Program-made: the position numbers and the translations under genes | The notes under the pieces: generated by a model | Seen by the model: only the letters and a program-made list of their open reading frames with translations | What the model was told of the DNA's origin: nothing | Database searches by the model: none | Virus record (IMG/VR): IMGVR_UViG_3300030490_000001 | Origin: a virus | Strand: one strand, 5' to 3' | Length of the DNA: 64,000 bases | Shown here: piece after piece, positions 1-20,619 of the stretch | Numbering within the stretch: position 1 is the first letter of the stretch | Layout of the letters: each line of letters starts with the position of its first letter

Positions 1-87
1 CCAGCGTCAGGCTTGCCGTGTGCGTAAAGGTAGGCGGCACCAGCAAAAAGCGTGGCGATAATTAGTGCGTTCTTGAACTTCCACATG
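1..87 (-). CDS. partial small hydrophobic protein (N-terminus only; gene runs off the left edge)
   Basis: Own translation from ATG at 87 on the minus strand: MWKFKNALIIATLFAGAAYLYAHGKPDA.., with no stop before the window edge. The N-terminus looks signal/TM-like. Confidence 0.3.
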
Positions 88-252
88 TGATTCCCTTCAA
101 TCAGTCGAAAGTGGCCGCGACCACGATGGCCGCAGCGATGAATAGGCCGGCGCCGGGAAGTCCGGTTACGCCGAGCGCAATGCCCACGATCACCAGGACG
201 ACAACGATTGCGGGCCTGGGTGAGTGCGGAGGCGGCAGATGGGCGGCAATCG

Positions 253-534
253 TCACGCCTCACCCCCTTGCACCGTCGCGATGATTTCGTCGATCAGTTC
301 GGGGCTTCGTTCTGGGTTGACCTGGCAACGCACACCCATATCCTTGGTCCCCTCCAGTGTCAGCCCGCATGCGCACACGGCCGCAGGCGACTCACCGCCA
401 GCCTGGGCGCCGCAGCTTGCGCACCGAAATACGAACTCCAGGCGCCCGCTCTTTTGGCGAACCATCACGCGGCCAAAGCACACACGACAGACGTGATCGG
501 TCATCACCCATGTGAGTTTTCCGCTCAGGTTCAT
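253..534 (-). CDS. small Cys-rich zinc-ribbon-like protein
   Basis: 93-aa ORF with cysteine pairs CRVC, CASC and CAC. Its start overlaps the stop of the upstream gene (ATGA at 531-534). Confidence 0.55.
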   Translation of the reverse strand: MNLSGKLTWVMTDHVCRVCFGRVMVRQKSGRLEFVFRCASCGAQAGGESPAAVCACGLTLEGTKDMGVRCQVNPERSPELIDEIIATVQGGEA

Positions 535-1076
535 GACGCACCTCGCGCAGCAACTGCATCAGCGATGCGGCGAAAGTGCGACGCGTGCCCATTGCGTCCC
601 ATCCCAACCCGGCCAGCCGAGTCACGCAGTGCAGCGATGATCAGCTCATCCGGGTCGACGCTCAGCGGCAGATAGGTCTCGCGACGAACCCCGTCATGCG
701 CGAAGTGGAACGACCGCGCCGCCAGTGGTCGCATGCGCGACGGTGAGCAGCCTTTCGCGTTACTGCCCTTGAGCCACTCGTACTGGCGGTTCTGGCACGA
801 CACGCAAAGGTGTTTTGAGATCAGCCGCCGGGATGGGCGCTGGCAACGACCGCAAATCCTGGCATTGCGCAGGGGTGAGATGGACGTGGTCGGCTCACCG
901 GAATGGGTCGCGCCAATCGGACAGTTCTTGCACGCCGATCGCAGTTCCCGCTCATCAGGCGTCCCGTGGTTGGCCTTTCGCCACATCTCAGCACAAGCAG
1001 CCACCGGGAACTTAGCCCGCAGCTTCTCGCAGCCGAAGTATTCAACGCCAGGTGTTTCGGGAATCGTGAAGTACAT
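531..1076 (-). CDS. Cys-rich hypothetical protein (several CxxC pairs)
   Basis: 181-aa ORF with CKNC, CGRC and CVSC pairs. AAGGGG lies 10 nt upstream of ATG 1076, and motif site 1 lies 34 nt upstream. Confidence 0.55.
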   Translation of the reverse strand: MYFTIPETPGVEYFGCEKLRAKFPVAACAEMWRKANHGTPDERELRSACKNCPIGATHSGEPTTSISPLRNARICGRCQRPSRRLISKHLCVSCQNRQYEWLKGSNAKGCSPSRMRPLAARSFHFAHDGVRRETYLPLSVDPDELIIAALRDSAGRVGMGRNGHASHFRRIADAVAARGAS

Positions 1077-1110
1077 GACCGTGCAGCCCCTTGCTATCGC
1101 GTAGGCGCAT

Positions 1111-1120
1111 TGTCACGACT
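1111..1120 (-). promoter_or_regulatory. TCGTGAC-core motif site 1
   Basis: Reads ttgatcaAGTCGTGACAatgcg on the minus strand. There are 34 nt to ATG 1076. TGATCAA abuts it. Confidence 0.6.
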
Positions 1121-1261
1121 TGATCAAAAACAAACAAGAGGGAATATCGTTACAAATCAACGGCTTGCTACGGTTAGATCGGTCTAGGTACGATCAAATA
1201 TGGTTAGCTACGGCTCGATACGGCTCAAATAATTCATCGATCTGCTCAACTTAACGTTTCT

Positions 1262-1716
1262 TTACAAAAGGGGGACGCTATCCAGAACGTCCCCCCTCCT
1301 GTCCCCCTGATTGTCCCCCTCAAATTCGGTCATCCTCTCTCTCTATCTATCTATTTCTATTAGAAAAGAAGAAGAAGAAGAAGAGAGAGGGGGACAAAGG
1401 GGACGGTAAATGTAGATATAGCCCCCTGTAAGAAAATGGGGGGGGGGAGGGGGTCTATGGGCAGGGTGTCTATGTATCCGGTGATGAGTACCCCCTCCCC
1501 CCCCCTCTTTTTCTCTCTATGAAATTGGCTGCGGGAGCGTCCCCCCCGTCCCCTTTGTCCCCTTTGCAATGTTTTCAATGGCTTATGGGTGCACGGCGAG
1601 GGGGACGCACTTTGCCCCGTCCCCCTGCGTACCCCTCCATAACCCCTGATTTTGTAACAAAACTGTCATAAAACGTCCCCCTGGGCGTCCCCCTCTGCGT
1701 CCCCCTCCCCTGTTTT
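1262..1716. repeat. structured non-coding block: GTCCCC(C) iterons, (GAA)5 homopurine run, G10/C9 inverted repeat (candidate origin or master control region)
   Basis: See the dedicated finding. I count 14 GTCCCC copies, 10 forward and 4 reverse, including three at a 12-bp period (1675, 1687, 1699). A 33-nt all-purine run spans 1362-1394. G10AG5T (1438-1454) faces AC5TC9 (1490-1505). Confidence 0.7.
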
Positions 1717-1726
1717 GGTCGTGACA
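1717..1726 (+). promoter_or_regulatory. TCGTGAC-core motif site 2
   Basis: Reads ttttgGTCGTGACAccacc. There are 15 nt to ATG 1742, and no SD. Confidence 0.6.
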
Positions 1727-1741
1727 CCACCATGACGACCC

Positions 1742-2245
1742 ATGGGAACCAAACCACACATCACACCCCGGACGCCGGGCTCGACGCCCTGGCGCGCATC
1801 AACTCTGCGCGACCGAGTCACCGGTGCACTGACCCGACTGAGTCCGGCGACCCGCGATGAGTTGGCCGCGTACACCGGCGATCCGCGTACGGAAGTCGAC
1901 GCCCTTATTAATGAGTTGCTGGTCGACGGCCTGGTCGTCCCGGTGCTCGACCGCTACCGCTACAAGTCTCCGCGCGAGCGATACGAGCGCCAGGTCACCC
2001 TGCATGACGGCACTGTTGTCGGGTCATGGTCGCCGGAGTGGAACACCGAACTTGAGGGCCGCGCCGTGCTGCGCATGCCCACAAAGATGCACCGCCAGGG
2101 ATACCTGATTCGCGTTCGAGAGAGGCGCGGCGACGCGAGGGCGAACGCGATGGAGGAGCTGTTACTGCGGATCTTCCGTTCCTCCCGCGCTGCCCGTGAC
2201 CCCGCCGGTGAGTCCGCCATGGACTCATCCCATGGCTCCGAATAA
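1742..2245 (+). CDS. hypothetical early protein
   Basis: 167-aa ORF, the first plus-strand gene after the structured non-coding block. Motif site 2 ends 15 nt before the ATG, and there is no SD. Confidence 0.5.
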   Translation: MGTKPHITPRTPGSTPWRASTLRDRVTGALTRLSPATRDELAAYTGDPRTEVDALINELLVDGLVVPVLDRYRYKSPRERYERQVTLHDGTVVGSWSPEWNTELEGRAVLRMPTKMHRQGYLIRVRERRGDARANAMEELLLRIFRSSRAARDPAGESAMDSSHGSE

Positions 2246-2290
2246 CTAAACCACGTCGTTTCATAAACCCCCTTCCCATAGGTCGGGGGA

Positions 2291-2330
2291 TATGATCAAA
2301 TTTGATCAAGTTAATCATATTTGATCAATA
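2291..2330. promoter_or_regulatory. GATC-centred palindromic operator cluster upstream of gene 2345
   Basis: GATCAAATTTGATC is a perfect 14-bp palindrome at 2294-2307. ATCATATTTGATCAA follows at 2314-2328. Confidence 0.55.
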
Positions 2331-2344
2331 GAAGGGGCAACACC

Positions 2345-2866
2345 ATGACCGCACGCGAAGCCAAGACCATTCCCGCCGGTGCCATCTCCGACATCATCGC
2401 CGGCCTGAATGTCGTGCTGGCTCCGCTGGACGCCGAGCGCCTGGTGCGCTCCCAGGAATGGGCGCAGCGTCGGTGCAATGCCCTGGTCGAGTTCAAGGCA
2501 TCCGAGGAAGGCCAAGCACTGCGCAATAACCAGTGGGCGTACTACCGCAAGCTGTTCGAGCTGTCTGGCGGAAAGACCTGGTACAGCGTTTTCGGTGGCG
2601 GCTACGGCCCGAGCGTGGCTGACTTCATGGTCAAAAACTGCGCCGCCGCCAAGGACAAGCGCAACTGGAAGATCGCCAAGTACCTGATCGACGCCGGTGT
2701 CACCTCCGTGACGTCCTCAACCTACGCGCGCACCAGCGACGGCTATGACGGCACCTTCACCGTCATGACCGACAAGGGCGATAAGACCGTCTACGTCCGC
2801 TCGATCTACGCAGGCGGCTACAACATCCAGTGCCTGCACATCCGCGTGCTGGTCAAGGTGTACTGA
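2345..2866 (+). CDS. hypothetical early protein
   Basis: ORF 2321-2866 trimmed to ATG 2345 (MTAREAK..), which has AAGGGG 7 nt upstream. GATC palindromes lie directly upstream. Confidence 0.55.
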   Translation: MTAREAKTIPAGAISDIIAGLNVVLAPLDAERLVRSQEWAQRRCNALVEFKASEEGQALRNNQWAYYRKLFELSGGKTWYSVFGGGYGPSVADFMVKNCAAAKDKRNWKIAKYLIDAGVTSVTSSTYARTSDGYDGTFTVMTDKGDKTVYVRSIYAGGYNIQCLHIRVLVKVY

Positions 2867-2867
2867 G

Positions 2868-3143
2868 GTGAGGCGAGTGATCTCCACGGCCTCCCTGCGA
2901 ATCCGGTTCGGCTGGCTGCGCTGCGCGCGCCGCCGACGGGACAGCGCAGTCATTGCCGCCAAGTCGCTACCCCTCGCTGCGCCCGCCATACGCACGGCAT
3001 TCGATTCCGCTGTGATCGCGCTGGCGAAGGAACTCAATTGCACCGAGGCGGACATCCGTCTCGGCATCAACCAGCGCGCCCCACACATCAGCGCGCGTTT
3101 CGCCGAGGCACTCGCTAACGCGATGTGCCAGCAGGCCGCCTGA
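2868..3143 (+). CDS. hypothetical small protein
   Basis: 91-aa ORF with a GTG start 1 nt after the previous stop, in an operon context. A competing antisense ORF makes the call uncertain. Confidence 0.4.
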   Translation: MRRVISTASLRIRFGWLRCARRRRDSAVIAAKSLPLAAPAIRTAFDSAVIALAKELNCTEADIRLGINQRAPHISARFAEALANAMCQQAA

Positions 3144-3144
3144 C

Positions 3145-3345
3145 GTGACCGGCCTCTCCTCCCGCATCAAGGCCACCCTCGCTGACGTGCCGGGCGCCTG
3201 GGCGCGCGAATGGAAAGACGGTTCTTGCTGGGTCGGTCCTAACTGCGCCAGCGCAATCGAGGCCCTGAGTGCAAGCGGCTTTAACCATAAAACCATCGAC
3301 GTGCCTGGCACGTCATTCAAAACCTGCATCGAGGTAATCGAGTGA
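3145..3345 (+). CDS. hypothetical small protein
   Basis: 66-aa ORF with a GTG start 1 nt after the previous stop. Confidence 0.4.
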   Translation: MTGLSSRIKATLADVPGAWAREWKDGSCWVGPNCASAIEALSASGFNHKTIDVPGTSFKTCIEVIE

Positions 3346-3476
3346 GAAACCCTGGAATTTTCCGCTGCATCCTGCAGCACGACAACGGCTATCGGGCCAA
3401 CTACATCGGGACTTTTGATGGTTGGTCTAGTGAGTGGCACCTGGTGCTGCGCTATCCGATGGAGATGGCGGCATGA
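3342..3476 (+). CDS. possible 44-aa protein (below the ORF-track size cutoff)
   Basis: Own translation: GTG 3342 overlaps the previous stop (GTGA). It reads VRNPGIFRCILQHDNGYRANYIGTFDGWSSEWHLVLRYPMEMAA*, and its stop overlaps the next ATG (ATGA at 3473-3476). Confidence 0.3.
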   Translation: MRNPGIFRCILQHDNGYRANYIGTFDGWSSEWHLVLRYPMEMAA

Positions 3477-3925
3477 GTGCGCATGTGAATGTGCTTGAGG
3501 TTATCGACGCTGTCGTGGCCGAGCTTCGCTCGATGGGGAATACCGGCCACGTTGAAAACCTGCTTGATGCTCGTGCCGCCACGGCCGAGCTGATCGAGCA
3601 GCGCAACGATCTCAATGCCTCCCTAGAGATCGTGATGCACATGGAAGTACGCGGCCATCAGTTGCAAGACCGGCTGCAGTTTTCCGATGTGGGTCGCGCA
3701 ATCCTCCATCAGGCAACTTCCTCACTAGCTCGCGCCAAGGGCTCCAGTAGTGCCGCCCTTGGTCGTGATGCAAGTTCGAATGATGCTGCCACCGCCCTAT
3801 TGATCAGGGGCGTGTCTTCCCTTCTCGCATCCGAGTCGACCCATATGACGCATCGCAACGCCAAAGAGCGCGATGCCTACAAGACGATTCGCACGGCTCT
3901 GGCGGCGCTTGGGAGAGTTGCATGA
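3473..3925 (+). CDS. hypothetical early protein
   Basis: ORF 3434-3925 trimmed to ATG 3473 (MSAHVNVLEV..), coupled to the upstream small ORF. Confidence 0.5.
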   Translation: MSAHVNVLEVIDAVVAELRSMGNTGHVENLLDARAATAELIEQRNDLNASLEIVMHMEVRGHQLQDRLQFSDVGRAILHQATSSLARAKGSSSAALGRDASSNDAATALLIRGVSSLLASESTHMTHRNAKERDAYKTIRTALAALGRVA

Positions 3926-4353
3926 GCCGCGTTGTGTCCGAGCAGGAATTCGCCGCGCGTATCCGTGAGCTACTGAGCGCCGAGTGCTTCATGTCCTATG
4001 GATGCGTGACTGGCCCGGGAAGATCCGGTGCCATCGCCGCCGTGTACGCATCGCACATCCTGCGCATCCCGTTCATTCCGTTCGGGCAGGAGATCCCCGA
4101 GTCACTGCGCTCGGTGCTGATCATCGACACCGCACGCGAGTCGGGAGAGACCTTGCGCAAGGCTTCGCGCAAGTACGCCTACGCCGGTGCCCGCTCGGCA
4201 GTCTGCTTTGAGGAGCCGCCGCGCGTCATGTTCTGGTATGAGAGCGGCAAGCCGCAGACCTACCGGCACGAGCAGCGCGCGATCAGCACGTGGAACCCGC
4301 CGCGTGGCTCGCTGCTCGCTCAGCATTCGCTGGTCGTTGGTGGTTGCCGATGA
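3922..4353 (+). CDS. type I phosphoribosyltransferase-like small protein
   Basis: 143 aa. GPGRSGAIAAVYASHIL followed by VLIIDTARESGETL resembles the PRPP-binding loop (hydrophobic x4, D, x4, G, x, T) of gpt/hpt-type PRTases. The start is an ATGA overlap. Confidence 0.5.
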   Translation: MSRVVSEQEFAARIRELLSAECFMSYGCVTGPGRSGAIAAVYASHILRIPFIPFGQEIPESLRSVLIIDTARESGETLRKASRKYAYAGARSAVCFEEPPRVMFWYESGKPQTYRHEQRAISTWNPPRGSLLAQHSLVVGGCR

Positions 4354-4700
4354 GCGCGCCCCAGATCATCACTATCCAGCAGGCGCGCTCCACCGGACTG
4401 CGCCGCTACTACACCGGTAAACCGTGCCTGCGAGGCCACCTATCTGAGCGCTACGTCATCAAGTCTTTTTGCATCGACTGCAAGCGCGAGAACAACAACG
4501 TCACATGGCTGGCACGATCTCCCACTAAGCGCGCTCCGGCCGGCCAGATAGTCTCTCGCGAGGCCGCAAGGATCAGGGGCCTGACGCTCTATTACACCGG
4601 CGAGCCATGTCGTCATGGGCATGTGTCCGATAGGTACACCCGCAAGGGATGCTGCACCGAGTGCGCGCGCATCTGTCGATCTAAGAGGGATGCCCGATGA
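4350..4700 (+). CDS. protein with two tandem YYTGxPCxxGH...C..C zinc-ribbon-like repeats
   Basis: ORF trimmed to ATG 4350 (ATGA overlap). It contains RRYYTGKPCLRGHLSERYV..CIDC and LYYTGEPCRHGHVSDRYT..CCTEC. Confidence 0.55.
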   Translation: MSAPQIITIQQARSTGLRRYYTGKPCLRGHLSERYVIKSFCIDCKRENNNVTWLARSPTKRAPAGQIVSREAARIRGLTLYYTGEPCRHGHVSDRYTRKGCCTECARICRSKRDAR

Positions 4701-4921
4701 GCTGGCACCTCCCCTACTGGTTCAGCACGTACCCCGCGCCCCCCTTCTACATGCGCCCAGGCTTCCGCCTTTGGTGGGAGCACGCGCCTCCGATGCACGC
4801 GTGCGACGTCCGCCTCATGCCATCCCCGCGCATCGCCATGCGTGGCCGCAACAAGTCCAAGGGCTCCGTGCGTATGCCGCGCGTGCGCAACCCTGGAGCA
4901 AAACGTAGCACAAGGCTATGA
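4697..4921 (+). CDS. hypothetical small protein
   Basis: 74-aa ORF with ATGA overlaps at both ends. Confidence 0.4.
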   Translation: MSWHLPYWFSTYPAPPFYMRPGFRLWWEHAPPMHACDVRLMPSPRIAMRGRNKSKGSVRMPRVRNPGAKRSTRL

Positions 4922-5202
4922 GCGGCGACATGACGCTATATCGATCCGTGCTCGCAGCACTTGCTCCGTCTCAGGTACTGCATGAGCTGGAACTGCGAAT
5001 GTCGCGCGATGGCGTGATTGTCCAGTTTTTCGGATGCCGTAGGGCGGGCGATCTAATCACGGAGAAGCTAAAGCGCCACCGGGAGCGTGTTCTGCACTTG
5101 CTTCTCAGGAACAAATTCAGGGTCCGCGCTGCACTTGCGCCGACCACGTCTAACAAGTTCCACCTATTGGTGGTAGGAGTTGAAAGTCATGAATGCACGT
5201 GA
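4918..5202 (+). CDS. hypothetical small protein
   Basis: 94-aa ORF whose start is an ATGA overlap. Confidence 0.4.
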   Translation: MSGDMTLYRSVLAALAPSQVLHELELRMSRDGVIVQFFGCRRAGDLITEKLKRHRERVLHLLLRNKFRVRAALAPTTSNKFHLLVVGVESHECT

Positions 5203-5479
5203 ATTGAGAGTGTGGCACTGGCGCCGGTATGAGGCCGCCTGCAAGACCTACAAGGCATATGAGTCCGAGGCGCTAGCACTTGAGGCTGCCGGCGGATCAT
5301 CCGCATTCCACCGCGAGCGCATGAGGGCTTCCGACCGTCGTGCCACATTCCACAACGCCGCCGTCAGGGTGCTAGATACCCACCCTGAGTGCATTGCTGC
5401 AGGTACGCGGGCCTATCAGGACGACAAAACCATGCCTGACCATAACCTGCGCATCCGAAAGCCACGTAACCATAAATGA
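5180..5479 (+). CDS. hypothetical small protein
   Basis: 99-aa ORF, last gene of the operon before a gap of about 390 nt. The start could instead be ATG 5189. Confidence 0.45.
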   Translation: MKVMNARELRVWHWRRYEAACKTYKAYESEALALEAAGGSSAFHRERMRASDRRATFHNAAVRVLDTHPECIAAGTRAYQDDKTMPDHNLRIRKPRNHK

Positions 5480-5502
5480 TCAACAGTGATGGGAGGAAGC
5501 TT

Positions 5503-5536
5503 GCAATCAAATTTGATACATGATCAAATTAGATCA
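5503..5536. promoter_or_regulatory. GATC-centred palindromic operator cluster
   Basis: ATCAAATTTGAT is a perfect 12-bp palindrome at 5506-5517. TGATCAAATTAGATCA follows at 5521-5536. Confidence 0.5.
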
Positions 5537-5830
5537 GCGCGACGGACTGACCTCGCGCCCCATCCTCGATAACGAATGGAATCACCGTGAAGAAACTTGT
5601 GCTTGTCGATATTGCTTTGGTCTATACCGCTGCACTTGAGCGTGATGGGAAGTCTAGCCACACCCGCGCGCCCTCCGCCAATCATGCGCCACGACATACG
5701 CCCCACCGAGTGCGTTCGGTGAGCTACTACCGCCCCATGCACCAAAGCGGGAGGAAGCAGACCACTTCGGTGAGGCGCCTCTAAACCTCGCCTCGAACAG
5801 GTTACTGGATACGTTTTTGCACACGCCAAA

Positions 5831-5840
5831 AGTCGTGACG
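5831..5840 (+). promoter_or_regulatory. TCGTGAC-core motif site 3
   Basis: Reads gccaaaAGTCGTGACGccatag. There are 33 nt to GTG 5874. Confidence 0.6.
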
Positions 5841-5873
5841 CCATAGTACCCCGACCAATTAGAGGGGTACACC

Positions 5874-6083
5874 GTGAAGCGCAAGACATCCACAAGGTTG
5901 ATGTACGACAGGCACACGTATAACGCGGACGTTGTAGCTGAGCTTCGCCGGCCTGAGCGTATGCCATCCGGATTCTGGCGGACCCTCGCCGAGATCATGG
6001 CGATAGCCATGATCGCTGGCGTCGTCATCGGTATCGCCCTTCACCTACTTTCTGGACTCCACCACGTGCCTCCGCACAGATAG
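5874..6083 (+). CDS. small membrane protein
   Basis: 69 aa with a GTG start and AGAGGGG 6 nt upstream. The hydrophobic segment IMAIAMIAGVVIGIALHLLSGL suggests a TM helix. Motif site 3 lies 33 nt upstream. Confidence 0.45.
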   Translation: MKRKTSTRLMYDRHTYNADVVAELRRPERMPSGFWRTLAEIMAIAMIAGVVIGIALHLLSGLHHVPPHR

Positions 6084-7587: not shown

Positions 7588-10431
7588 CTATAACAACTCG
7601 CTTTCACTCTCGACCGAGCGACCGCCGAACCCAATCAGCTCCAGCGGCAACGTGGTTACGCGCGTCTTGATGCCGTTGAACTTGAGCTGCTTTCCAGCTC
7701 CGTTACCAGCGCCAGGCAGTCGTGAGAAGGCCGCGCGCGGGTCGGTGGCGAATGGAGTGCCGGCCAGCAGCTTACGTATCGCGCTGGCGGAGTTGGATAG
7801 CGCCAGCTTTGTGCCGTCCAGTGCTATTCCATGCTGCCTCAGTTCGGTTCGCGCCTGGCGCCCTTCCAGGGTTCGGCCCTCCACCTCCTCGCCAAGCGCA
7901 AAGCTGATCAGGTTGTGCACGCTGTGCTTTGTGCCCATGACCATGATGAATGACCCCATCAGCTCCTCCAGTGCACTTTGCGAGTCGTCAGACTCTGCCT
8001 GCTCGGCGTACTCAGTCCAGTCGAACTGATTCATAAAGGCGAGGGCCTGCTCATCCGTCACCAGACCGGAGTTCATCAGCGACCAGGCGCCAGCCATCAT
8101 GGTGCCGTACTGATCGCCGTCGCGCTGGTTACCGAACTTGGCTGCAGCCACTTTGGTGAAGGTGTCGATGTTCTGCAGGACGATCGGCATCATGTCGATC
8201 ACGCGCCGCAGCATACGCCCACGCAGGTCCGTATCGCGCTCCATCCAATGGAGCTCATCCTTGACCTTGACCCAGTTGGCCGCCGCGTCAGGGTCGCCGC
8301 GCGAGGTCCTGAGCGTGAGCACCGACAAGCGGTCGATGTCGGCTTTCTTGTCCATACCAACGTAGATCGATGCAAGGCAGAACATGCTCCTGACGTGGAA
8401 CGCCATGCCGCTACCGGATATGGTGCCCTTGAGTGTCTTGGCATCCGACTCGCTCGACGACTGGCGGATCAGCGAGAGCATGTTTTCTATGCGCGCGGTT
8501 TCGCGCTCGCCATTGGATTCAGCCTCGTCAAGTAGCACGGGGACGGACGTGGAGCCGATCGCTTGCCGTACACCTGACTCCGTCGAGTTTCCTTGGGCGT
8601 ACTCGCATGCCTTCTTTCCAAGGAGGGCGTATACGTACCGCTGCATAATGGTTGACTTACCGTTACCGGCTGGGCCGGTGAGCCATACATGGGGGCGCCA
8701 CTTGAGCGCGCCACATATCGGAGACAGGAACGTCCAGCCGGCAAGCAGTGCTGCCGATGAGTCGCGTTGCCAGCGGAACATTTTTGATACGCCAAAGAGA
8801 CGCTGACCCTCCTCGTCGGAGAGTGGGGTATCGGATGGAGGAGGGAGCGGGAGGGTTTGCTCATATACGTATTCCGACTTGATCTCTGTAACGTCCATCC
8901 TGGCACCGTCGACGCTCAAGTAGCTTCCATGATGAAAGACATGACGACCCTTGTCGGTCCAAGCGCCGCCGGCACGTACGCGGGCGCGGTCGTAAATCCC
9001 GCGCCGGTGAGCGGTGCGGATAATGAAGTTGGCTGCAGCGTTGACGTTGCAGCCATTCTTGCCGGGGAAGTGGATTTCCCACCACTGGAGATCGGCAATC
9101 TCCATCAGGCCAGACATGGAGAATGACCCGCGCGTGTAGTCCATGATCTGCTTTTTTTCGTGCAGGAAAATGAAGTACAGATCGCGGTCATAGCCGAGGA
9201 TGGTGAAGCCGAGTTGCTCCTCAAACTCGCGCGCAGCCAGGTCGGCCGCCTCGTGCTGGGTACGTGCCTGCCTAGGCGCCTGGGGAACCTCGCGCGCTGC
9301 CTCGCTGAATTGCGGCTCACCCTCCCATGGCAGCGGTTCATCGGACGTGAGTGGGTCCTTGGTCTCCGCTTCCGGTGGGTACAGCACGGCATTGATACAC
9401 GCTTCGACGTCGGCCAGTCCCTCGCGAGCGTGCAAATCGTTGAAGTCGGTGGGCTTGCCATCCAGGTCATCAAACTGCGGTATCGCGACCAGACCACCGA
9501 CCGCATGCGCGGCCTTCGTGGCGTAATGCACGCCCGGGTTGTTGACCGGTATGACCGTGAACTGGTCGTTGTCGGCCGCAAACAGGATCAGGGCATCTGG
9601 GAACTTGGCGCGGATCGCCTCGCCTACTGGCTGCAGGTTAGCCGAGTCGAACGCCACCACAACGGCATGGCCGGTCGCCTCGTGAATGCTGGAGCCAGTG
9701 GCGAAGCCCTCGGCGACAACGAACAGGAACTTCCCGTCTGCGCTCTTTTTCGGCTGGCCGATCGGAAAGAAGTTTCCGCGCTTGGCGCCGCCAGTTAGGT
9801 AAAGCTTTGGGAACTTGCCGTCATCGCCCGGCTTGGCAGGGATGGCCTGAATAGAGTGCGTGGCCTTGTTGAAGTCGCGAAGCTGGATAAGCAGAGCTTT
9901 CCGGTAGGTGAACTTGACCTCACCAGTGTCCTTGTCGAACACGGGGAAGTCGCCGACGCGTGCGCCGGATGCATTGATGCCCTTGAGCCCAAGGTACCCA
10001 TGCGACCCGTCTGATGGCGTGGCGTCATTCCAGATACCGGCAGCCAGCTTGGCCTTTTCCGCGCGCTCATCGCGAATTTTCTCATCGCGTTCCGCCTGGC
10101 GCGCCTTCATGTCAATTTCAAGCTGCTTGCGCTCATCGGCGCTCATCGGCACGCGGTCGGACTGCGCGGGCTTCCACGTGAAGGCGTGGTCAGTACCGTA
10201 GCGCTTGTTGCAGCCAAAGGTGCCATTAGGGTGGCTATCCGCATGCAGCTTGTACCAGCCGGTGCCGGACTTTTTCTTGTCGCCCGCTACGTCGTACCGC
10301 TCAAGCTTGCCGCTGGCGATGATCGTCTCATGGCTCGCCGGGCCGATACCTTCATCGCACATCGCATCGCGGAACTGCGCGATGATTTCGATCTCGGAGA
10401 GCATTGGTGCTCGATTATTCTTATGGTCCAT
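7588..10431 (-). CDS. bifunctional DNA primase / SF3 (D5/P4-alpha-like) helicase
   Basis: 947 aa. A Toprim-like acidic motif (LILFAADNDQF) lies in the N-terminal half. The C-terminal half has the Walker A motif GPAGNGKST and LLDEAE. Size and layout are typical of phage/plasmid primase-helicases. Confidence 0.88.
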   Translation of the reverse strand: MDHKNNRAPMLSEIEIIAQFRDAMCDEGIGPASHETIIASGKLERYDVAGDKKKSGTGWYKLHADSHPNGTFGCNKRYGTDHAFTWKPAQSDRVPMSADERKQLEIDMKARQAERDEKIRDERAEKAKLAAGIWNDATPSDGSHGYLGLKGINASGARVGDFPVFDKDTGEVKFTYRKALLIQLRDFNKATHSIQAIPAKPGDDGKFPKLYLTGGAKRGNFFPIGQPKKSADGKFLFVVAEGFATGSSIHEATGHAVVVAFDSANLQPVGEAIRAKFPDALILFAADNDQFTVIPVNNPGVHYATKAAHAVGGLVAIPQFDDLDGKPTDFNDLHAREGLADVEACINAVLYPPEAETKDPLTSDEPLPWEGEPQFSEAAREVPQAPRQARTQHEAADLAAREFEEQLGFTILGYDRDLYFIFLHEKKQIMDYTRGSFSMSGLMEIADLQWWEIHFPGKNGCNVNAAANFIIRTAHRRGIYDRARVRAGGAWTDKGRHVFHHGSYLSVDGARMDVTEIKSEYVYEQTLPLPPPSDTPLSDEEGQRLFGVSKMFRWQRDSSAALLAGWTFLSPICGALKWRPHVWLTGPAGNGKSTIMQRYVYALLGKKACEYAQGNSTESGVRQAIGSTSVPVLLDEAESNGERETARIENMLSLIRQSSSESDAKTLKGTISGSGMAFHVRSMFCLASIYVGMDKKADIDRLSVLTLRTSRGDPDAAANWVKVKDELHWMERDTDLRGRMLRRVIDMMPIVLQNIDTFTKVAAAKFGNQRDGDQYGTMMAGAWSLMNSGLVTDEQALAFMNQFDWTEYAEQAESDDSQSALEELMGSFIMVMGTKHSVHNLISFALGEEVEGRTLEGRQARTELRQHGIALDGTKLALSNSASAIRKLLAGTPFATDPRAAFSRLPGAGNGAGKQLKFNGIKTRVTTLPLELIGFGGRSVESESELL

Positions 10432-10526: not shown

Positions 10527-10967
10527 CTACTTGTTCACCGCGCCATTGAAGTCGCGGACTAGCCCTTGTGCTTGCTCGGGCGATGATGCAAACCCGGCGA
10601 TGCCGCCGGCCCCGCAGATCTGCTCGATGAAATTTTTCTGTTCCTTGCGCTTGGTGCCGCCGGTGGAGTTCTTGGTCTCGATAGCCGTGTAGATGGCGAC
10701 CCTTCGGCCGACCAACTCTGGCGTCACGACTATGGACGTCCATCCTTGCAGGTCTGACGCGCCCTTCAATGCGTCACCGGACGGGGTCGAGAATCCAATC
10801 GCAATGGAGCGCGCGGCCTTGATCACGACCGATCCATCAGTGAGCTGTATCACGCCGTCAGGGCCTAGGCCGGAGATCCAGCCGCGCCCGGTGTTGAGGC
10901 GAAAGAGTCTGGTGCCGAGGTGCGCGACGGCACCCCACACCATGCGCATGACGTTGTTCTCTTTCAC
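10527..10967 (-). CDS. VRR-NUC domain nuclease
   Basis: 146 aa. GASDLQGW ... AIETK fits the D..(D/E)xK pattern and size of VRR-NUC proteins. Confidence 0.7.
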   Translation of the reverse strand: MKENNVMRMVWGAVAHLGTRLFRLNTGRGWISGLGPDGVIQLTDGSVVIKAARSIAIGFSTPSGDALKGASDLQGWTSIVVTPELVGRRVAIYTAIETKNSTGGTKRKEQKNFIEQICGAGGIAGFASSPEQAQGLVRDFNGAVNK

Positions 10968-11407
10968 AGATCGGTATCCGCAATGGTGTAGTGGCGCGGG
11001 TTCTTGTCCGCGTACTGCGCGCGCAGTTTTGGCATGAGCGACTCGAATCGCGCGCGGAGATCCATGTAGGCATCGATCCGGCTTGGCGGCCGATCATCCG
11101 TCAGCTTGCCGGAGTGCTTGGCCTCGATCAGGATGTTGATACACGCCAGCGCGTTAGCGAGATGGGGCGTACCGTCCGTGGGATCGTCTTCCTGGCCTTC
11201 CCACCATGAGTCAATGTGGCGGCTCAGTGCAGATACGTAGATCGATGCACGAGCACCTGCGACGCGGTAGTTGTGCGCGCCGTACTTGATGTTTCCGAGG
11301 TAGTGCGCTATCGCCTGGTAGAGCTTGACGATCGGGGAGACGAGATGCATCGGTGCTTTATCGATCGCGATGGCGTCCTTAGGGTTGAGCAGATCGGTGT
11401 CTTTCAT
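10964..11407 (-). CDS. DUF5664-like dATP/dGTP pyrophosphohydrolase-domain protein
   Basis: ORF trimmed to ATG 11407 (MKDTDLL..). The pattern DKAP..L.P...........G..KYG..NYR....A.....SAL.RH...WW.G..DDP.DG.PHLANALAC...LIE matches my memory of that family. Confidence 0.6.
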   Translation of the reverse strand: MKDTDLLNPKDAIAIDKAPMHLVSPIVKLYQAIAHYLGNIKYGAHNYRVAGARASIYVSALSRHIDSWWEGQEDDPTDGTPHLANALACINILIEAKHSGKLTDDRPPSRIDAYMDLRARFESLMPKLRAQYADKNPRHYTIADTDL

Positions 11408-11987
11408 TCCTGATCCTATGCCAGTACGCCTTTCGGGCGATGGAAATTTTCTGCCTTGCCTCATCCGACAGGGCGTGAGGCTTGCGGTCCTTTAGGGCTG
11501 CCTTTAGGTTTGCCCGGTGGTCGTCCGACATCGGCCCGCGAATAAGTCCTAGCGCATGTCGGTTGCCGCGCTGCGCGTCCGACATCCTTGCCCGCGTTGC
11601 GTCCGACTTTCTGACTCCCTTCATCGTTGCGGAGATCTTTTCTCGCTCGTGATCAGGCCTTACGCGGCCAACGTTGTACGTGTTACCGGTTTGTCGCACG
11701 GATACGTCGCGAGCGTGCCGCCTGCGTAGCCAGCCGTACGCCTTGTTTCCGGTGCATTGCTTCGCCATGCGCACCGCTGCCGTGGCGAGTCCGCGAGCAG
11801 ACGGGTGAATCCTTGTCAGAAGCTGATGCGCCACGTAGTGCTCCTCTGCCGTGAGATCCACGAGATTGGATAGCTCATCACCGCCGCCCATGCATCGCGG
11901 CAAGATGTGGTGACGCTCTTTGTATCCGTCGACCAACCTTTCCCTTGCGCGGGCAATGAGTCGTTCGTAGTGGTCGAGGTACCGCAT
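11379..11987 (-). CDS. HNH homing endonuclease with NUMOD3-like repeats
   Basis: 202 aa. HHILPRCMGG..NLV.LT.EEH..AH is an HNH motif. The C-terminus has repeated basic S/T..R..MS segments. It is free-standing between ssb and the DUF5664 gene and overlaps the latter by 29 nt. Confidence 0.8.
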   Translation of the reverse strand: MRYLDHYERLIARARERLVDGYKERHHILPRCMGGGDELSNLVDLTAEEHYVAHQLLTRIHPSARGLATAAVRMAKQCTGNKAYGWLRRRHARDVSVRQTGNTYNVGRVRPDHEREKISATMKGVRKSDATRARMSDAQRGNRHALGLIRGPMSDDHRANLKAALKDRKPHALSDEARQKISIARKAYWHRIRNERHRSAQP

Positions 11988-12048: not shown

Positions 12049-12531
12049 CTAGAATGGGATCTCATCGTCGTCGAAGGCGCCGCCGCTCGACTGCTGACTC
12101 CCGCCCTGCTGCTGGCCGCTGGTGCGCTGCTGCTGGCCTCCATTATTGGTGTCACGACTTCCGTTGCCGCCGGAGTTTCCGCCGCTGCGCTGACCATCAT
12201 CCTTGCTGCCGAGCATCTTCATTTCGTGGCACACCACCTTCGTGGTGTAGCGCTCGATGCCTTCCTTGTCAGTGTACTTCTCGGTCTCGTTGCGACCCTC
12301 CAGGTACACCAGCGAACCTTTCTTGAGGTACTCGCCGCAGATCTCGGCCAACTTGCCCCATATGACGATGCGGTGCCATTCGGTCTTTTCCTGCTTGTTT
12401 CCCTGCTTGTCTTTCCACTTATCGGAAGTGGCGACGCTGAAATTCGCGACGGCGTTGCCGTTGCTGATGAACTTCACTTCCGGGTCGTTGCCGAGGCGTC
12501 CTACAAGGATGGTTTTGCTCATTGATGACAT
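12049..12531 (-). CDS. ssb: single-stranded DNA-binding protein
   Basis: ORF trimmed to ATG 12531 ([18 protein letters not shown]..). It has an OB-fold SSB N-terminus, a Gly/Gln-rich linker and the acidic tip DDDEIPF. Confidence 0.9.
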
Positions 12532-12560
12532 GGGAGTTGCCTCTCTACTGTGGGTGCCTG

Positions 12561-14186
12561 CTAGGCGGCTTGTTTCTCTGCCCGGTACTGGGCAAAGCGT
12601 TCTTTCAATTCCTTCAAAGCCTTTGGCTTGTAGGTTTTGAGGTCGGATAGAGCGACGTTGAAGATCGACAGGGAGGACTGCCCGGTGTCCTTTCGCCACT
12701 GCTGGAAATCGTCGATGAGGCCGTTGCGCAAGGCCTCTTTCTCTTGGCGCGCGGCTGCTATGTGATTCGCGCGCTCCATGCTGTAGCCGAGCTTTGCGAC
12801 CATCTCGTCAGCGGTTCGAGCCTTCCCCTGGTCGCGGCGCTGCGCGATCGCCATCTGCTCGCGCATCTCTGGCGTGATCTCCTCCAGCTCACCCTCAACC
12901 TCTTCCAGGTTGCGTTTCCGCTCGGGGTAGATGAATCCGCAGGCGGGACACTGCGGAGCTGGCTCGTGCACGAGAAAGCACTGCGTGCACTGCTTTAGGC
13001 CGATGGTCGCCTCGTCGTTCCTTTTCTTGACCTTCTTGACCTTGCCGTCGAGCGACCACTCGCGGTCGTCGTCGGCAAAGCCATGCTTGAAGGTAAGGCC
13101 AGCATGGTCGAGCACATAGAAGTGGTCGCCCTTTGGTCCATCCAGCATCGCTGCGTGACGATCCTCGATCGTTTCCTGGCTGTAACCATCGGCATACATC
13201 GGGCGCGAGCCACGGCCAACCGTCTGCAGATATGACACCAGCGACAGTGTCGGGCGCAGCAGGATCACGCACTTGATCGCAGGACAGTCGACGCCCTCTA
13301 CCAGCAACATGGCGAACGTGATCACCTTGATCTCGCCTGACTCAAGCCTGCGCAGCGCGCGGTCACGTTCGGCGGATTCGTCCTCACCGGAGAGCGCCAC
13401 GGCAGGAATACCGGCTGCGTTGAACTCCGCCGCGACGTGCTCGGCGTGCTTCACGTTGGCGCACCACGCTACCGCCGGTGCGCCCGGGCAGATACGGCGC
13501 CAGTGGGCAATGGCGTTGCCGGTAATGACCGGCTTGTCCATCACCTTCGCGACCTCGTCCATGTCCAGGTCGTTGCCCTTCGTGTTGACCTCAGTCATGT
13601 CGGGCGCGGTAGGCGACGCGTACACGACCGGACGCAGCAGGAAGCGATGGCGCACCAGCTCGCGGAAAGAGATACCCACAACCATCTCGTCGAACGTGCC
13701 GCCGGCATGGCGGCCGAGTCCCTTACCGTCCAGGCGTCGAGCAGTCGCGGTAACGCCCAGAATTTTTGTCTTGGGGTTCAGTGCAACCAGATGCAAAAGG
13801 ACTTTGGTGTATGAGGGCGTAGCCGATAGGTGCGCCTCATCAATGACGATGATGTCAAAGCCCTGCTTGATCTTGTCGAGCCGTCGCACGAGGGTCTGCA
13901 CGGATGCGACCTGGACAGGCTTGAAAAGGCTCGGGGTGTAGGCGGCCATGATGAGGCCGTGGTCGACACCGTTTGCCCTGAGCTTGGCGCTGGCCTGTTT
14001 GAGCAGCATGTCGCGGTGCGCAAGCACCAGCACGCGGCGCCCTTTTTGGGCGGCCTGAGTCGTGATGTAGCTGAAGATCACTGTCTTGCCCGCGCCGGTG
14101 GCGAGCACTAGCAGGACGGCGGCAACTTTGCGGAATGCCTCGCGGACTTTGTTAGCCGCGTCACTCTGATAAAAGCGAAGCTTCAT
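12561..14186 (-). CDS. SF2 DEAD/DEAH-box DNA helicase
   Basis: 541 aa. It has FYQ, Walker A TGAGKT, a DEAH box (VIDEAH) and a C-terminal CxxC..CxxC zinc ribbon. Confidence 0.85.
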
Positions 14187-20550: not shown

Positions 20551-20576
20551 GATTGATCATTTTTGATTGATCATTT
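20551..20576. promoter_or_regulatory. direct repeat GATTGATCATTT x2 upstream of integrase 1
   Basis: The copies are at 20551-20562 and 20565-20576 (14-bp period), 44 nt before ATG 20620. Confidence 0.5.
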
Positions 20577-20619
20577 ATGCGCACGCGGCCCACCCGGGCC
20601 GATTTTTTTAAGGGGCGTC

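What the first reader, a model, noticed from the sequence alone, without database searches (positions are those of the whole stretch)
1262..1716. A 450-bp non-coding block packed with iterons, a homopurine (GAA)5 run and a G10/C9 dyad: candidate replication origin or master control region
The block lies between divergent motif sites 1 and 2 and contains no credible ORF. Instead it holds several structured elements. (a) I count 14 copies of GTCCCC(C). Ten are forward (1289, 1301, 1313, 1539, 1548, 1557, 1619, 1675, 1687, 1699) and four are reverse (1270, 1390, 1399, 1600). They include a palindromic pair, GGGGGACG..CGTCCCCC at 1270-1296, and three tandem GCGTCCCCCT units at a 12-bp period. (b) A 33-nt all-purine run at 1362-1394 contains (GAA)5. 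It is preceded by a pyrimidine-rich CCTCTCTCT arm (1334-1342) complementary to AGAGAGAGG (1382-1390). (c) A 15-16-bp G:C inverted repeat pairs G10AG5T (1438-1454) with AC5TC9 (1490-1505). (d) An outer inverted repeat pairs GGGGACAAAGGGGACGG (1390-1406) with CCGTCCCCTTTGTCCCC (1546-1562), giving an imperfect dyad of about 170 bp centred near 1472-1476. (e) GCTACGG repeats and three GATC sites lie at 1150-1250. Iterons combined with structure-prone DNA are classic origin features, and the phage encodes its own primase-helicase. The G-runs could also form G-quadruplexes or triplex DNA.
Basis: partly seen in the sequence, partly recalled or inferred. Interest (0 to 1): 0.7.

Follow-up and report, generated by a model that had tools for sequence, protein, structure and literature searches.

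The report
Phage replication origin with short iterons
The repeat-packed non-coding block is real and is most likely this phage's origin of DNA replication, where its own primase-helicase binds and loads. It is an uncharacterised example of an origin type already known from satellite phage P4 and the staphylococcal pathogenicity islands (SaPIs).

Summary
14 of the window's 23 GTCCCC words lie within 455 bp (binomial P about 6e-25). Three independent metagenome assemblies carry the same sequence.

The block is conserved in position across a group of about 90-kb myoviruses (PHB04, Mecenats66, Touem01, Dolphis and more than 40 uncultured contigs). The 6-7 bp repeated word differs between lineages: GGTWACC, GGTATC, GGTAGC, GGAACGG, and GTCCCCC here.

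The strongest evidence comes from distant phages that share only the primase-helicase. There, the same kind of array (opposed short iterons around an AT-rich centre) lies directly next to the primase-helicase gene and far from the packaging genes. The clearest cases are phi1422 and Acjo_20.

The window's primase domain is homologous to P4 alpha. The modelled C-terminal part of the primase-helicase has the SaPIbov1 Rep initiator-helicase as its best structural match, though weakly.

The adjacent Cys-rich protein is not the specificity determinant: it is 97.8% identical in two phages whose iterons differ.

Verdict: an origin of the P4 / SaPI type, confidence about 0.7. It is a new member of a known kind and moderately interesting. 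G-quadruplex or triplex roles remain speculation.

The parts
1111..1119 (-). Left boundary: GTCGTGACA motif pointing towards the Cys-rich gene (candidate phage promoter)
   Evidence: One of 14 exact sites in the window, nearly all at gene junctions and in gene orientation.
1161..1230 (.). Tandem array of about seven units of about 10 bp (CGGyTnGnTA). A second, separate repeat class.
   Evidence: families D3, D6. Close relatives have different 10-bp arrays at the same place, e.g. L088 with GATCAAATTG x8. P4 ori likewise has three tandem 10-bp 'type 2' repeats beside its 8-bp iterons.
1270..1319 (.). Palindromic iteron pair (GGGGGACG..CGTCCCCC) followed by two more forward iterons at 12-bp spacing
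   Evidence: Conserved in L084, L086 and L088.
1329..1395 (.). CT-rich arm, (CTAT)n, and a 33-nt purine run with (GAA)5. This is the most AT-rich part of the block (up to 72% AT) and the candidate unwinding element.
   Evidence: The same kind of element is kept in L084, L086 and L088. In other lineages the place is taken by (ATT)n / TATATA tracts.
1390..1406 (-). Two reverse iterons at 9-bp spacing; left arm of the 17/17 outer inverted repeat
   Evidence: (I5).
1433..1511 (.). G10AG5T ... AC5TC9 inverted repeat: a hairpin or cruciform-prone centre. The inner ends are one-mismatch iterons (GGGGGTC / GTACCCCC).
   Evidence: I1; -25.9 kcal/mol, z -5.05. Present in L084 and L086, absent in L088. 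Two assemblies break here.
1539..1562 (+). Three forward iterons at 9-bp spacing; right arm of the outer inverted repeat
1567..1580 (.). CAATGTTTTCAATG, a non-iteron element conserved in close relatives
   Evidence: window, L084 and L086 identical; L088 similar.
1600..1626 (.). Second palindromic iteron pair (GGGGGACG N10 CGTCCCCC)
1674..1707 (+). Three forward (G)CGTCCCCCT units at 12-bp period, abutting the right-hand promoter-like motif
1718..1726 (+). Right boundary: GTCGTGACA motif pointing towards gene 1742-2245
7588..10431 (-). Primase-helicase (947 aa), the proposed initiator that reads the iterons. The Toprim primase domain is homologous to P4 alpha. The last ~140 residues are the candidate winged-helix DNA-binding domain.
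   Evidence: 32% identity over 187 aa to P4 alpha, E 1e-11; AF2 pLDDT 81; best PDB match SaPIbov1 Rep, E 0.078.
531..1076 (-). Cys-rich protein (8 invariant Cys). It is always the left neighbour of the block but is not the iteron-specificity determinant. In relatives the headful packaging cut maps to its 3' end.
   Evidence: PMC9503643.
1742..2245 (+). Right neighbour, a winged-helix-like N-terminus plus a DUF7696 domain. It neighbours the block only in this lineage.

Best explanation
The block 1262-1716, within the 1077-1741 intergenic region, is the phage's origin of replication.

Proposed mechanism (inferred, not shown):
1. The phage's own primase-helicase (7588-10431) recognises the 6-7 bp GTCCCC(C) iterons through its C-terminal domain.
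2. The iterons are arranged as opposed sets. Sites 1289/1301/1313 face 1390/1399, and 1390/1399 oppose 1539/1548/1557. Palindromic pairs lie at 1270-1296 and 1600-1626. This would allow oligomers to assemble on both sides of the easily melted centre: the AT-rich Py/Pu tract at 1329-1395 and the hairpin-prone 1433-1511.
3. The helicase loads there and the fused Toprim domain primes synthesis.

This is the logic shown experimentally for SaPI Rep and P4 alpha.

What is shown here: the anatomy, its conservation, its lineage-specific iteron word, and its genomic linkage to this primase-helicase family. What is inferred: binding, melting and origin firing. The flanking outward-facing promoter-like motifs suggest that the block itself is not transcribed. 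They also leave open that occupancy of the outermost iterons modulates the two early operons.
For: 1. Clustering is far beyond chance and the sequence is reproducible in independent assemblies.

2. The block is conserved in position, upstream of the Cys-rich gene, in 9 cultured or uncultured relatives examined by eye and in most of about 70 loci. The repeated word is lineage-specific: GGTWACC, GGTATC, GGTAGC, GGAACGG, TGGAACA, GGGGTAC, GTCCCCC. Relatives at 63-80% protein identity keep the same GTCCCC layout site by site.

3. Iteron swap. Two contigs (the phages of L045/L090 and L046/L091) are 89-98% identical in flanking DNA. They have unalignable blocks, with GGAACGG replaced by GTGACAG-like words on the same AT-rich scaffold. 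Their primase-helicase is the most diverged large gene: 60% overall, about 25-45% over most of the last ~140 aa, with gene flanks at 94-98%.

4. Linkage in distant phages that share only the primase-helicase (27-39% identity). The strongest 6-mer cluster of the whole genome is an opposed-iteron array around an AT-rich centre, lying next to the primase gene:
- phi1422: GGTAAC x12, starting just after the primase stop codon, 7 kb from terS.
- Acjo_20: TGTAAC x12, directly upstream of the primase.
- MQ-4: GTAACA x8, 1.6 kb downstream.
- In KLER1-1 (TGTAAG x7, rank 2) and S-H1 (CTAACG, rank 3) an iteron array lies just after the primase gene; only coding CAGCAG-type repeats score higher.
. The chance that a genome's top cluster lies within 1 kb of one given gene in a 45-kb genome is about 0.045.

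5. The initiator candidate resembles known origin-binding primase-helicases. The Toprim region is 32% identical to P4 alpha (E 1e-11). The AF2 model of the last 240 aa (pLDDT 81) has SaPIbov1 Rep (8tch) as its best PDB match, followed by RuvB.

6. The anatomy fits the published rule for SaPI origins: 6-12 penta- or hexanucleotide iterons, an AT-rich centre, and at least two iterons on each side pointing in opposite directions (PMC9371898). It also fits the annotated P4 ori: 8-bp iterons in both orientations plus 10-bp tandem repeats, in a divergent intergenic region 2.1 kb upstream of alpha.
Against: - There is no functional data of any kind.
- The structural match to SaPI Rep is weak (E 0.078, TM 0.28). 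P4's origin-binding domain was not among the 50 best matches shown.
- Across 23 phages, C-terminal-domain identity tracks iteron class only marginally once helicase-core identity is controlled (coefficient +0.02). Phages sharing GGTWAC have C-terminal domains as low as about 30% identical.
- In the informative pair, the small HTH gene next to the block also diverges (54.6%). It could be the binder there.
- In the window the block is 5.9 kb from the primase gene, not adjacent to it. In PY223 the array is 12 kb away, and Mwe-JY13 shows no array.
- In KLER1-1 the array also lies just upstream of terS, so that case cannot separate replication from packaging.
- GC skew in the window gives no signal. 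No DnaA box was found, and only one IHF-like site.
Confidence: 0.7

Rival explanations
1. Early-transcription control region. The iterons are operator or enhancer sites for a phage DNA-binding protein that governs the two divergent early operons. Candidates are the neighbouring HTH or winged-helix protein, or the primase-helicase acting as autoregulator.
For: - The block sits between two outward-facing GTCGTGACA promoter-like motifs, and the last iteron ends 14 bp before motif 2.
- In enteric relatives the iterons abut a sigma-70-like promoter of the Cys-rich operon.
- In the L045/L046 pair the adjacent HTH protein diverges together with the block.
Against: - The neighbouring gene on that side is not conserved across the group, while the array is.
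- Counts of 14 to more than 30 sites spread over 0.4-1.2 kb around an AT-rich core are atypical for operators.
- In phi1422 and S-H1 the array lies downstream of the primase gene (in phi1422 around its terminator) rather than at a promoter.
- This reading can coexist with an origin function, as in iteron plasmids.
Confidence: 0.14
2. Packaging recognition region. The iterons are binding sites for a small-terminase-like factor that directs the headful series-initiation cut.
For: - In Mecenats66 the preferred packaging start was mapped experimentally to the 3' end of the Cys-rich gene homologue, about 0.5 kb from the block (PMC9503643). The Touem01 record ends at the same place.
- In the window's lineage the large terminase lies about 5.7 kb downstream in the same operon.
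- In KLER1-1 and PY223 the array is upstream of terminase genes.
Against: - The mapped cut is single-nucleotide precise and lies 0.55-1.2 kb away from the iterons, with a whole gene in between. Known pac sites are cut within or beside the recognition repeats (my own knowledge of P1, SPP1 and P22).
- In phi1422, Acjo_20 and S-H1 the array abuts the primase gene, and in phi1422 it is 7 kb from terS.
- Mecenats66, the one phage with a mapped pac site, has no obvious iteron word in its block.
Confidence: 0.08
3. Another cis site: a plasmid-type partition centromere, integrase arm sites (attP), or a purely structural G-quadruplex / triplex / cruciform element with no protein-specific repeats.
For: - Short repeats in both orientations occur in parS and attP arms.
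- The G10AG5, with further GGG tracts downstream, and the (GAA)5 run are structure-prone.
- The window encodes two integrases.
Against: - No ParA or ParB lies next to the block.
- The integrase genes are 19 and 57 kb away.
- The block is also present in relatives isolated as plaque-forming phages (PHB04, Mecenats66, Touem01).
- The G/C dyad and GAA run are lineage-specific decorations, replaced by AT-rich DNA elsewhere.
Confidence: 0.03

Closest known systems
SaPI replication origin and its Rep / PriRep initiator-helicase (Staphylococcus aureus pathogenicity islands)
   Same: - Short (5-6 bp) element-specific iterons, 6-12 per origin.
- An AT-rich centre with at least two iterons on each side pointing in opposite directions.
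- An initiator that is itself the helicase, fused to a primase in PriRep5, and reads the iterons with a C-terminal winged helix (PMC9371898).
- The best PDB match of the window's primase-helicase C-terminal model is SaPIbov1 Rep.
- In phi1422, KLER1-1 and S-H1 the array sits immediately downstream of the gene, as in SaPIs.
   Different: - No detectable sequence similarity to SaPI Rep, and the fold match is weak (E 0.078).
- In this window the array is 5.9 kb from the gene, in a divergent intergenic region.
- There are 14 iterons in several nested sets, plus a second class of 10-bp tandem repeats, a Py/Pu tract and a G10/C9 dyad.
Satellite phage P4 ori / crr and gp alpha (primase-helicase-origin binder)
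   Same: - The Toprim primase domains are homologous (32% identity over 187 aa, E 1e-11). There is a weak match around the Walker A motif and a sub-threshold DUF5906 hit.
- P4 ori lies in a divergent intergenic region 2.1 kb upstream of alpha. It holds six 8-bp type-1 repeats in both orientations plus three tandem 10-bp type-2 repeats. crr, with ten more, lies just downstream of alpha.
- Both placements are seen in this family: window-type (remote) and phi1422-type (just downstream).
   Different: - The window protein lacks Pfam-detectable Zn_Ribbon_Prim, D5_N and Pox_D5 domains.
- P4's origin-binding domain did not appear among the 50 best fold matches shown.
- No second crr-like array was found in the window.
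- The iteron word is unrelated.
Polyomavirus / papillomavirus origins (large T antigen, E1)
   Same: From my own knowledge: pentamer or hexamer sites in inverted pairs, flanked by an imperfect palindrome and an AT tract, that nucleate a double hexamer of an initiator-helicase.
   Different: These are eukaryotic viruses, with the DNA-binding domain N-terminal to the helicase. There is no homology evidence here. This is an analogy of mechanism only.
P1 pac site
   Same: From my own knowledge: clusters of hexamers, some containing GATC, on both sides of a functional centre.
   Different: P1 is cut inside the repeat cluster. Here the mapped cut of a relative lies 0.5 kb or more outside it, and the array follows the primase gene in other phages.

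Membership tests
Iteron origin served by a self-loading initiator-helicase (SaPI ori / P4 ori type) | Many short (5-8 bp) repeats of one word, in both orientations, concentrated in a few hundred bp | tested here: met
   14 GTCCCC(C) sites in 434 bp, 10 forward and 4 reverse. P about 6e-25.
Iteron origin served by a self-loading initiator-helicase (SaPI ori / P4 ori type) | An AT-rich or easily melted centre with at least two iterons on each side pointing in opposite directions | tested here: met
   Sites 1390/1399 (reverse) and 1539/1548/1557 (forward) flank 1407-1538. Sites 1289-1313 (forward) and 1390/1399 (reverse) flank the 60-72% AT tract at 1317-1385. The rule is as stated in PMC9371898.
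Iteron origin served by a self-loading initiator-helicase (SaPI ori / P4 ori type) | The element encodes an initiator-helicase with a sequence-specific DNA-binding (winged-helix) domain | tested here: inconclusive
   A primase-helicase is present. The C-terminal model has pLDDT 81. The top PDB match is SaPIbov1 Rep, but at E 0.078 and TM 0.28, followed by RuvB.
Iteron origin served by a self-loading initiator-helicase (SaPI ori / P4 ori type) | The iteron word co-varies with the initiator | tested here: inconclusive
   Supported in one near-isogenic pair: block swapped, primase-helicase 60% against flanks at 94-98%. Across 23 phages there is only a marginal effect after controlling for helicase-core identity.
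Iteron origin served by a self-loading initiator-helicase (SaPI ori / P4 ori type) | The array is genetically linked to the initiator gene | tested here: met
   Adjacent to the primase gene in phi1422, Acjo_20, KLER1-1 and S-H1, and 1.6 kb away in MQ-4. In the window it is 5.9 kb away, comparable to P4 ori at 2.1 kb.
Iteron origin served by a self-loading initiator-helicase (SaPI ori / P4 ori type) | The initiator binds the repeats and the fragment supports initiator-dependent replication | not testable with these tools
   Needs EMSA or footprinting and a plasmid replication or marker-frequency assay.
P4 gp alpha protein family | Toprim_3 primase domain homologous to alpha | tested here: met
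   Pfam Toprim_3 E 2.3e-8. BLASTP to P4 alpha gives 32% identity over 187 aa, E 1e-11.
P4 gp alpha protein family | Zn_Ribbon_Prim, D5_N, an SF3 helicase (DUF5906) and a Pox_D5 C-terminal origin-binding domain | tested here: not met
   P4 alpha hits all of these. The window protein has only a sub-threshold DUF5906 hit (17.9 bits, cut-off 27.6) and none of the others.
Headful pac site | The series-initiation cut lies within or beside the repeats, and the site is linked to terminase genes | tested here: not met
   The mapped cut in Mecenats66 is at the 3' end of the neighbouring gene, about 0.5 kb outside the block (PMC9503643). In phi1422 the array is 7 kb from terS.
DnaA-dependent or lambda / plasmid-type iteron origin | DnaA boxes, or 17-22 bp iterons for a Rep / O-type initiator | tested here: not met
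   No DnaA box within 1 mismatch. The repeat unit is 6-7 bp.
attP (integrase arm sites) | Lies adjacent to the integrase gene and is present only in temperate members | tested here: not met
   The integrases are at 20563-21912 and 58334-59374. The block is conserved in PHB04, Mecenats66 and Touem01, which were isolated as plaque-forming phages.

The most novel reading that the evidence does not exclude
The array is the origin of a widespread, undescribed replicon family: this primase-helicase plus a GTAAC-type opposed-iteron module. Its recognition word is rewritten quickly, even between phages that are about 90% identical. This would make origin-initiator specificity a fast-evolving 'replicon identity', which could prevent cross-replication, hijacking by satellites or interference between co-infecting relatives. 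In the window's lineage the origin would additionally have acquired structure-prone inserts (the G10/C9 cruciform and the (GAA)n Py/Pu tract) that gate firing.
Probability: 0.2. Interest if true: 0.65.

Novelty: new member of a known kind. Interest (0 to 1): 0.45.

Why it matters
- It gives a concrete, testable origin and a candidate initiator for a poorly studied group of about 90-kb myoviruses. Cultured members infect Bordetella, Pseudomonas, Aeromonas, Yersinia, Escherichia and Morganella, and related prophages lie in contigs of Paraburkholderia, Cupriavidus, Microvirga and Geminicoccus genomes. No origin had been proposed for this group in the papers I could find.
- The same module marks the origin in unrelated 40-50-kb phages that carry this primase-helicase. 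A simple scan for the top 6-mer cluster next to the gene would therefore annotate many genomes.
- The iteron swap between near-identical phages is a natural experiment for mapping how a primase-helicase reads DNA.
- A practical point: the G10/C9 dyad breaks short-read assemblies of this phage.

Tried and rejected
- Megablast of window 1-6000 against GenBank phages: no match.
- Rfam and tRNA scans of the window: nothing. Sigma-70 promoter and terminator consensus scans of 1000-2400: nothing.
- Cys-rich protein as the iteron reader: rejected. It is 97.8% identical across an iteron swap. It has no Pfam, PHROG or PDB sequence hits. Its model is poor (pLDDT 65) and gives no meaningful fold match.
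- Avoidance of the iteron word elsewhere in the genome: rejected. The 9 copies outside the block match a Markov expectation of 10.5.
- GATC / Dam clustering as an origin mark: not exceptional. There are 4 sites in 160 bp, while other 140-bp windows reach 5.
- GC skew: the window profile follows gene orientation and shows no switch at the block. Only 1 kb lies to its left.
- Global regression of C-terminal-domain identity on iteron class: too weak to use.
- A candidate recognition helix (DLRGxLLR in most phages, DPRAAFSR in the window's lineage) differs by clade, but it is identical in the GGTWAC, GGTATC and GGTAGC classes. No recognition code can be read from it.
- Injection-stop signal (as in T5): rejected. 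Headful packaging permutes the ends, so the block has no fixed distance from a terminus (inference from PMC9503643).
- Word-index homologue searches for the primase C-terminus returned only 3-10 fragments, so the structure model rests on a shallow alignment.
Full report
**Context.** The window is part of a large tailed phage. It encodes a 947-aa primase-helicase (7588-10431, minus strand), an SSB, helicases, an exonuclease, two integrases, and a myovirus structural module at 26-57 kb. The nearest cultured relatives are the ~90-kb phages Bordetella PHB04, Aeromonas ST4, Pseudomonas Touem01 and Dolphis, Yersinia fHe-Yen8-01, Escherichia ECML-606-1 and Morganella Mecenats66, with primase identity of 33-46%. 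The finding lies in the 665-bp gap (1077-1741) between two divergent genes. One encodes a Cys-rich 181-aa protein (531-1076, minus strand). The other encodes a 167-aa protein with a winged-helix-like N-terminus and a DUF7696 domain (1742-2245, plus strand).

**Observation.**
- GTCCCC occurs 23 times in 64 kb, and 14 of these lie at 1271-1704. Ten are forward and four reverse. The binomial P is about 6e-25.
- The 12-bp and 9-bp periodic sub-arrays, the two palindromic pairs, the 17/17 outer inverted repeat, the 33-nt purine run with (GAA)5 and the G10AG5T / AC5TC9 dyad are all confirmed.
- The dyad folds as single-stranded DNA at -25.9 kcal/mol (z -5.05). The palindromic pairs give z -4.4 and -3.5. 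The Py/Pu hairpin is only marginal, at z -2.3.
- The only G/C homopolymers of 9 or more and the only purine or pyrimidine runs of 22 or more in the window lie in this block.
- The same sequence, base for base, is present in two other independent assemblies (L097, L098). Two further assemblies end exactly at the G/C dyad, which evidently breaks short-read assembly.
- The 'GCTACGG repeats' belong to a separate tandem array of about 10-bp units at about 1161-1230.
- The block is bracketed by two outward-facing copies of GTCGTGACA. This motif has 14 exact sites in the window, nearly all at gene junctions, and is probably a phage promoter.

**Conservation.** The Cys-rich gene has homologues in ten GenBank phages, 58 IMG/VR contigs and 15 bacterial or MAG contigs. 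In almost all of the closer ones a 0.5-1.2 kb non-coding block lies directly upstream of it, packed with one short word in both orientations. The word differs between lineages:
- GGTTACC / GGTAACC in most, with up to about 31 copies in Dolphis.
- GGTATC in PHB04 and in the Caballeronia- and Paraburkholderia-derived contigs L018/L070 and L069.
- GGTAGCG in ST4, TGGAACA in fHe-Yen8-01 and GGAACGG in ECML-606-1.
- GGGGTAC in L013, and GTCCCC(C) in the window.

Three closer relatives (L084, L086, L088; Cys-rich protein 80, 68 and 63% identical) keep the GTCCCC word and the same order of parts:
1. Motif 1, then a 10-bp tandem array whose unit differs in each phage.
2. A palindromic pair plus two direct iterons.
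3. A CT-rich / purine tract, then two reverse iterons.
4. An AT-rich stretch with or without the G/C dyad.
5. Three forward iterons, then CAATGTTTTCAATG.
6. A second palindromic pair.
7. Further direct iterons, three in the window and L084, then motif 2.

The G/C dyad is missing in L088, where plain AT-rich DNA takes its place. The iterons and an easily melted centre are therefore the constant features. The dyad and the (GAA)n run are decorations of this lineage.

**Which protein reads the iterons?** Two IMG/VR contigs give a natural experiment. They are 89-98% identical over the roughly 33 kb I could compare. Their blocks cannot be aligned. GGAACGG is replaced by GTGACAG-like words, while the AT-rich scaffold between the words is retained. 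Across this swap:
- The Cys-rich protein is 97.8% identical, so it is not the specificity determinant.
- The most diverged large gene is the primase-helicase, at 60% overall. Identity is about 60-95% (mostly 70-90%) in the primase domain, 20-35% at residues 361-480, 50-88% in the helicase core, and mostly 25-45% over the last ~140 residues. The DNA on either side of the gene is 94-98% identical.
- A small HTH gene just upstream of the block also diverges, to 54.6%. That neighbour is not conserved across the group.

A global test over 23 phages asked whether C-terminal identity tracks iteron class once helicase-core identity is controlled. It gave only a marginal effect, so co-variation is suggestive and not proven.

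**The strongest evidence.** I looked at phages that share only the primase-helicase (27-39% identity) and otherwise have different architectures. I scanned their genomes, or the 26-38 kb fetched for Acjo_20, PY223 and S-H1, for the strongest 6-mer cluster in any 500-bp window.
- Bdellovibrio phage phi1422: the top cluster is GGTAAC x12 (the next best word has 7). It starts just after the primase stop codon, is 7 kb from terS, and has opposed sets around a TATTATTATT core.
- Acinetobacter phage Acjo_20: TGTAAC x12 (next best 7), filling the gap directly upstream of the primase gene.
- Serratia phage MQ-4: GTAACA x8, 1.6 kb downstream of the primase.
- Pararheinheimera phage KLER1-1 and Synechococcus phage S-H1: an iteron array (TGTAAG x7, rank 2; CTAACG, rank 3) begins right after the primase gene; only coding CAGCAG-type repeats score higher.
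- Bordetella phage PY223: CGTAAC x7, 12 kb from the primase, as in the PHB04 group.
- Microcystis phage Mwe-JY13: no array.

The words are variants of one theme (GTAAC). The AT-rich cores even share ACTACTAC and (ATT)n tracts with the enteric members of the PHB04 group. The module therefore travels with this primase-helicase family, and not with the Cys-rich gene or the terminase.

**The protein.**
- The Toprim region is homologous to P4 gp alpha (32% identity over 187 aa, E 1e-11). There is a weak match at the Walker A motif and a sub-threshold DUF5906 hit. The Zn-ribbon, D5_N and Pox_D5 domains of alpha are not detected.
- An AlphaFold2 model of the last 240 residues (12-sequence alignment, pLDDT 81) shows a helical bundle followed by helix / beta-hairpin units.
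- Its best match among 350,542 PDB chains is the SaPIbov1 Rep initiator-helicase (8tch, E 0.078, probability 0.72), followed by RuvB. This is weak, but it points to the expected kind of protein.

**Comparison with known origins.**
- Published work states that SaPI Reps read penta- or hexanucleotide iterons with a C-terminal winged helix. There are 6-12 iterons per origin, around an AT-rich centre, with at least two on each side pointing in opposite directions (PMC9371898).
- The annotated P4 record shows ori in a divergent intergenic region 2.1 kb upstream of alpha. It has six 8-bp repeats in both orientations and three tandem 10-bp repeats. crr, with ten more repeats, lies just downstream of alpha.
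- Both placements, and both repeat classes, have counterparts here.

**Rival readings.**

*Packaging.* In Mecenats66 the preferred headful start was mapped experimentally to the 3' end of the Cys-rich gene homologue (PMC9503643), and the Touem01 record ends at the same place. In the window's lineage the lambda-gpA-like large terminase lies about 5.7 kb further along that operon, beyond the left end of the window. A packaging function does therefore map nearby, at about window 520-545. But the cut is precise and lies 0.55 kb or more outside the iterons. Mecenats66 has no clear iteron word. In phi1422, Acjo_20 and S-H1 the array follows the primase gene, not the terminase genes.

*Transcriptional control.* A regulatory role is compatible with the position between promoters and may coexist with origin function. 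It does not explain the number of sites, the AT-rich core or the placement downstream of the primase gene in other phages.

*attP and partition.* These are excluded by distance from the integrase genes, by the absence of Par genes, and by conservation in plaque-forming relatives.

**Conclusion.** The block is most likely the origin of replication recognised by the phage's primase-helicase. It works like the P4 and SaPI origins. It is not a member of either family by sequence. It is a new member of a known kind of system, in a phage group for which I found no proposed origin. Binding, melting and firing are inferred and were not shown. I put confidence at 0.7. The G-quadruplex, triplex and cruciform ideas remain untested. 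The dyad's absence in L088 argues that it is not essential.

Noticed in passing
window 1111-1119(-), 1718-1726(+), 14291(-), 14651(+), 28924(-), 33435(-), 49118(-), 49775(-), 57242(-), 57281(+), 62088(+): (A)AAGTCGTGACA(C) has 14 exact copies, nearly all in intergenic junctions and oriented with the downstream gene, often 13-40 nt before the start codon. It is probably a phage-specific promoter. It is also present at the block edges in L084, L086 and L088.
   Followed up: partly
window 2292-2328, 5476-5527, 14691-14737, 20553-20574, 62150-62181: Clusters of the palindromic TTGATCAA(AT) motif lie upstream of several genes (38 hits at 1 mismatch or fewer, against 18.9 expected). It may be an operator or part of a sigma-70-like promoter. 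The same motif follows the DUF7696 gene in L084 and L086.
   Followed up: no
window 1161-1230; L088 (rc of 8700-10010) positions about 100-180: A tandem array of about 10-bp units next to the Cys-rich gene promoter is replaced by unrelated 10-bp arrays in close relatives (GATCAAATTG x8 in L088). It is a second fast-evolving binding array and recalls the 10-bp type-2 repeats of P4 ori. Its binder is unknown.
   Followed up: partly
window about 520-545 (3' end of gene 531-1076): By homology this is where the headful packaging series starts in relatives. It was mapped experimentally in Mecenats66 (PMC9503643), and the Touem01 record ends there. The Cys-rich protein, with 8 invariant cysteines and no known fold, may belong to packaging rather than replication.
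   Followed up: partly
window 57400-62050: A low-GC island (0.54-0.56) lies where relatives have the terminase gene next to the portal gene. It carries a second integrase (58334-59374), an O-antigen acetyltransferase (59669-60901) and a small ORF at 61484-61891 that looks HicB-like by eye (not searched). In this lineage the large terminase lies about 5.7 kb beyond the left end of the window (L097 16269-18347).
   Followed up: partly
window 22240-22285: A lone inverted pair of iteron-like words, GGGGGGGGACAAG ... CTTGTCCCC (9-bp arms, 24-nt spacer), lies 330 bp after the integrase gene 20563-21912. It could be a terminator hairpin, a secondary binding site or chance.
   Followed up: no
L011 (end at window 1427) and L099 (end at window about 1505): Two independent metagenome contigs of this same phage stop at the G10 / C9 dyad, one with garbled bases. 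The dyad is a systematic assembly breakpoint and could be mistaken for a genome terminus.
   Followed up: yes
window 11379-11987(-): An HNH homing endonuclease gene is inserted in the replication module, between the SSB gene (12049-12699) and gene 10964-11464, whose best PHROG family is annotated as an endolysin that inhibits RNA polymerase, with a weaker hit to a dATP/dGTP pyrophosphohydrolase family.
   Followed up: no
L074, L075, L076, L071, L078, L080 (genome contigs): Relatives of this phage group are integrated in large chromosomal contigs of Paraburkholderia solisilvae, Microvirga lupini, Cupriavidus, Geminicoccus and Pseudomonas. The group therefore includes true temperate members alongside the phages isolated as plaque formers.
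   Followed up: no
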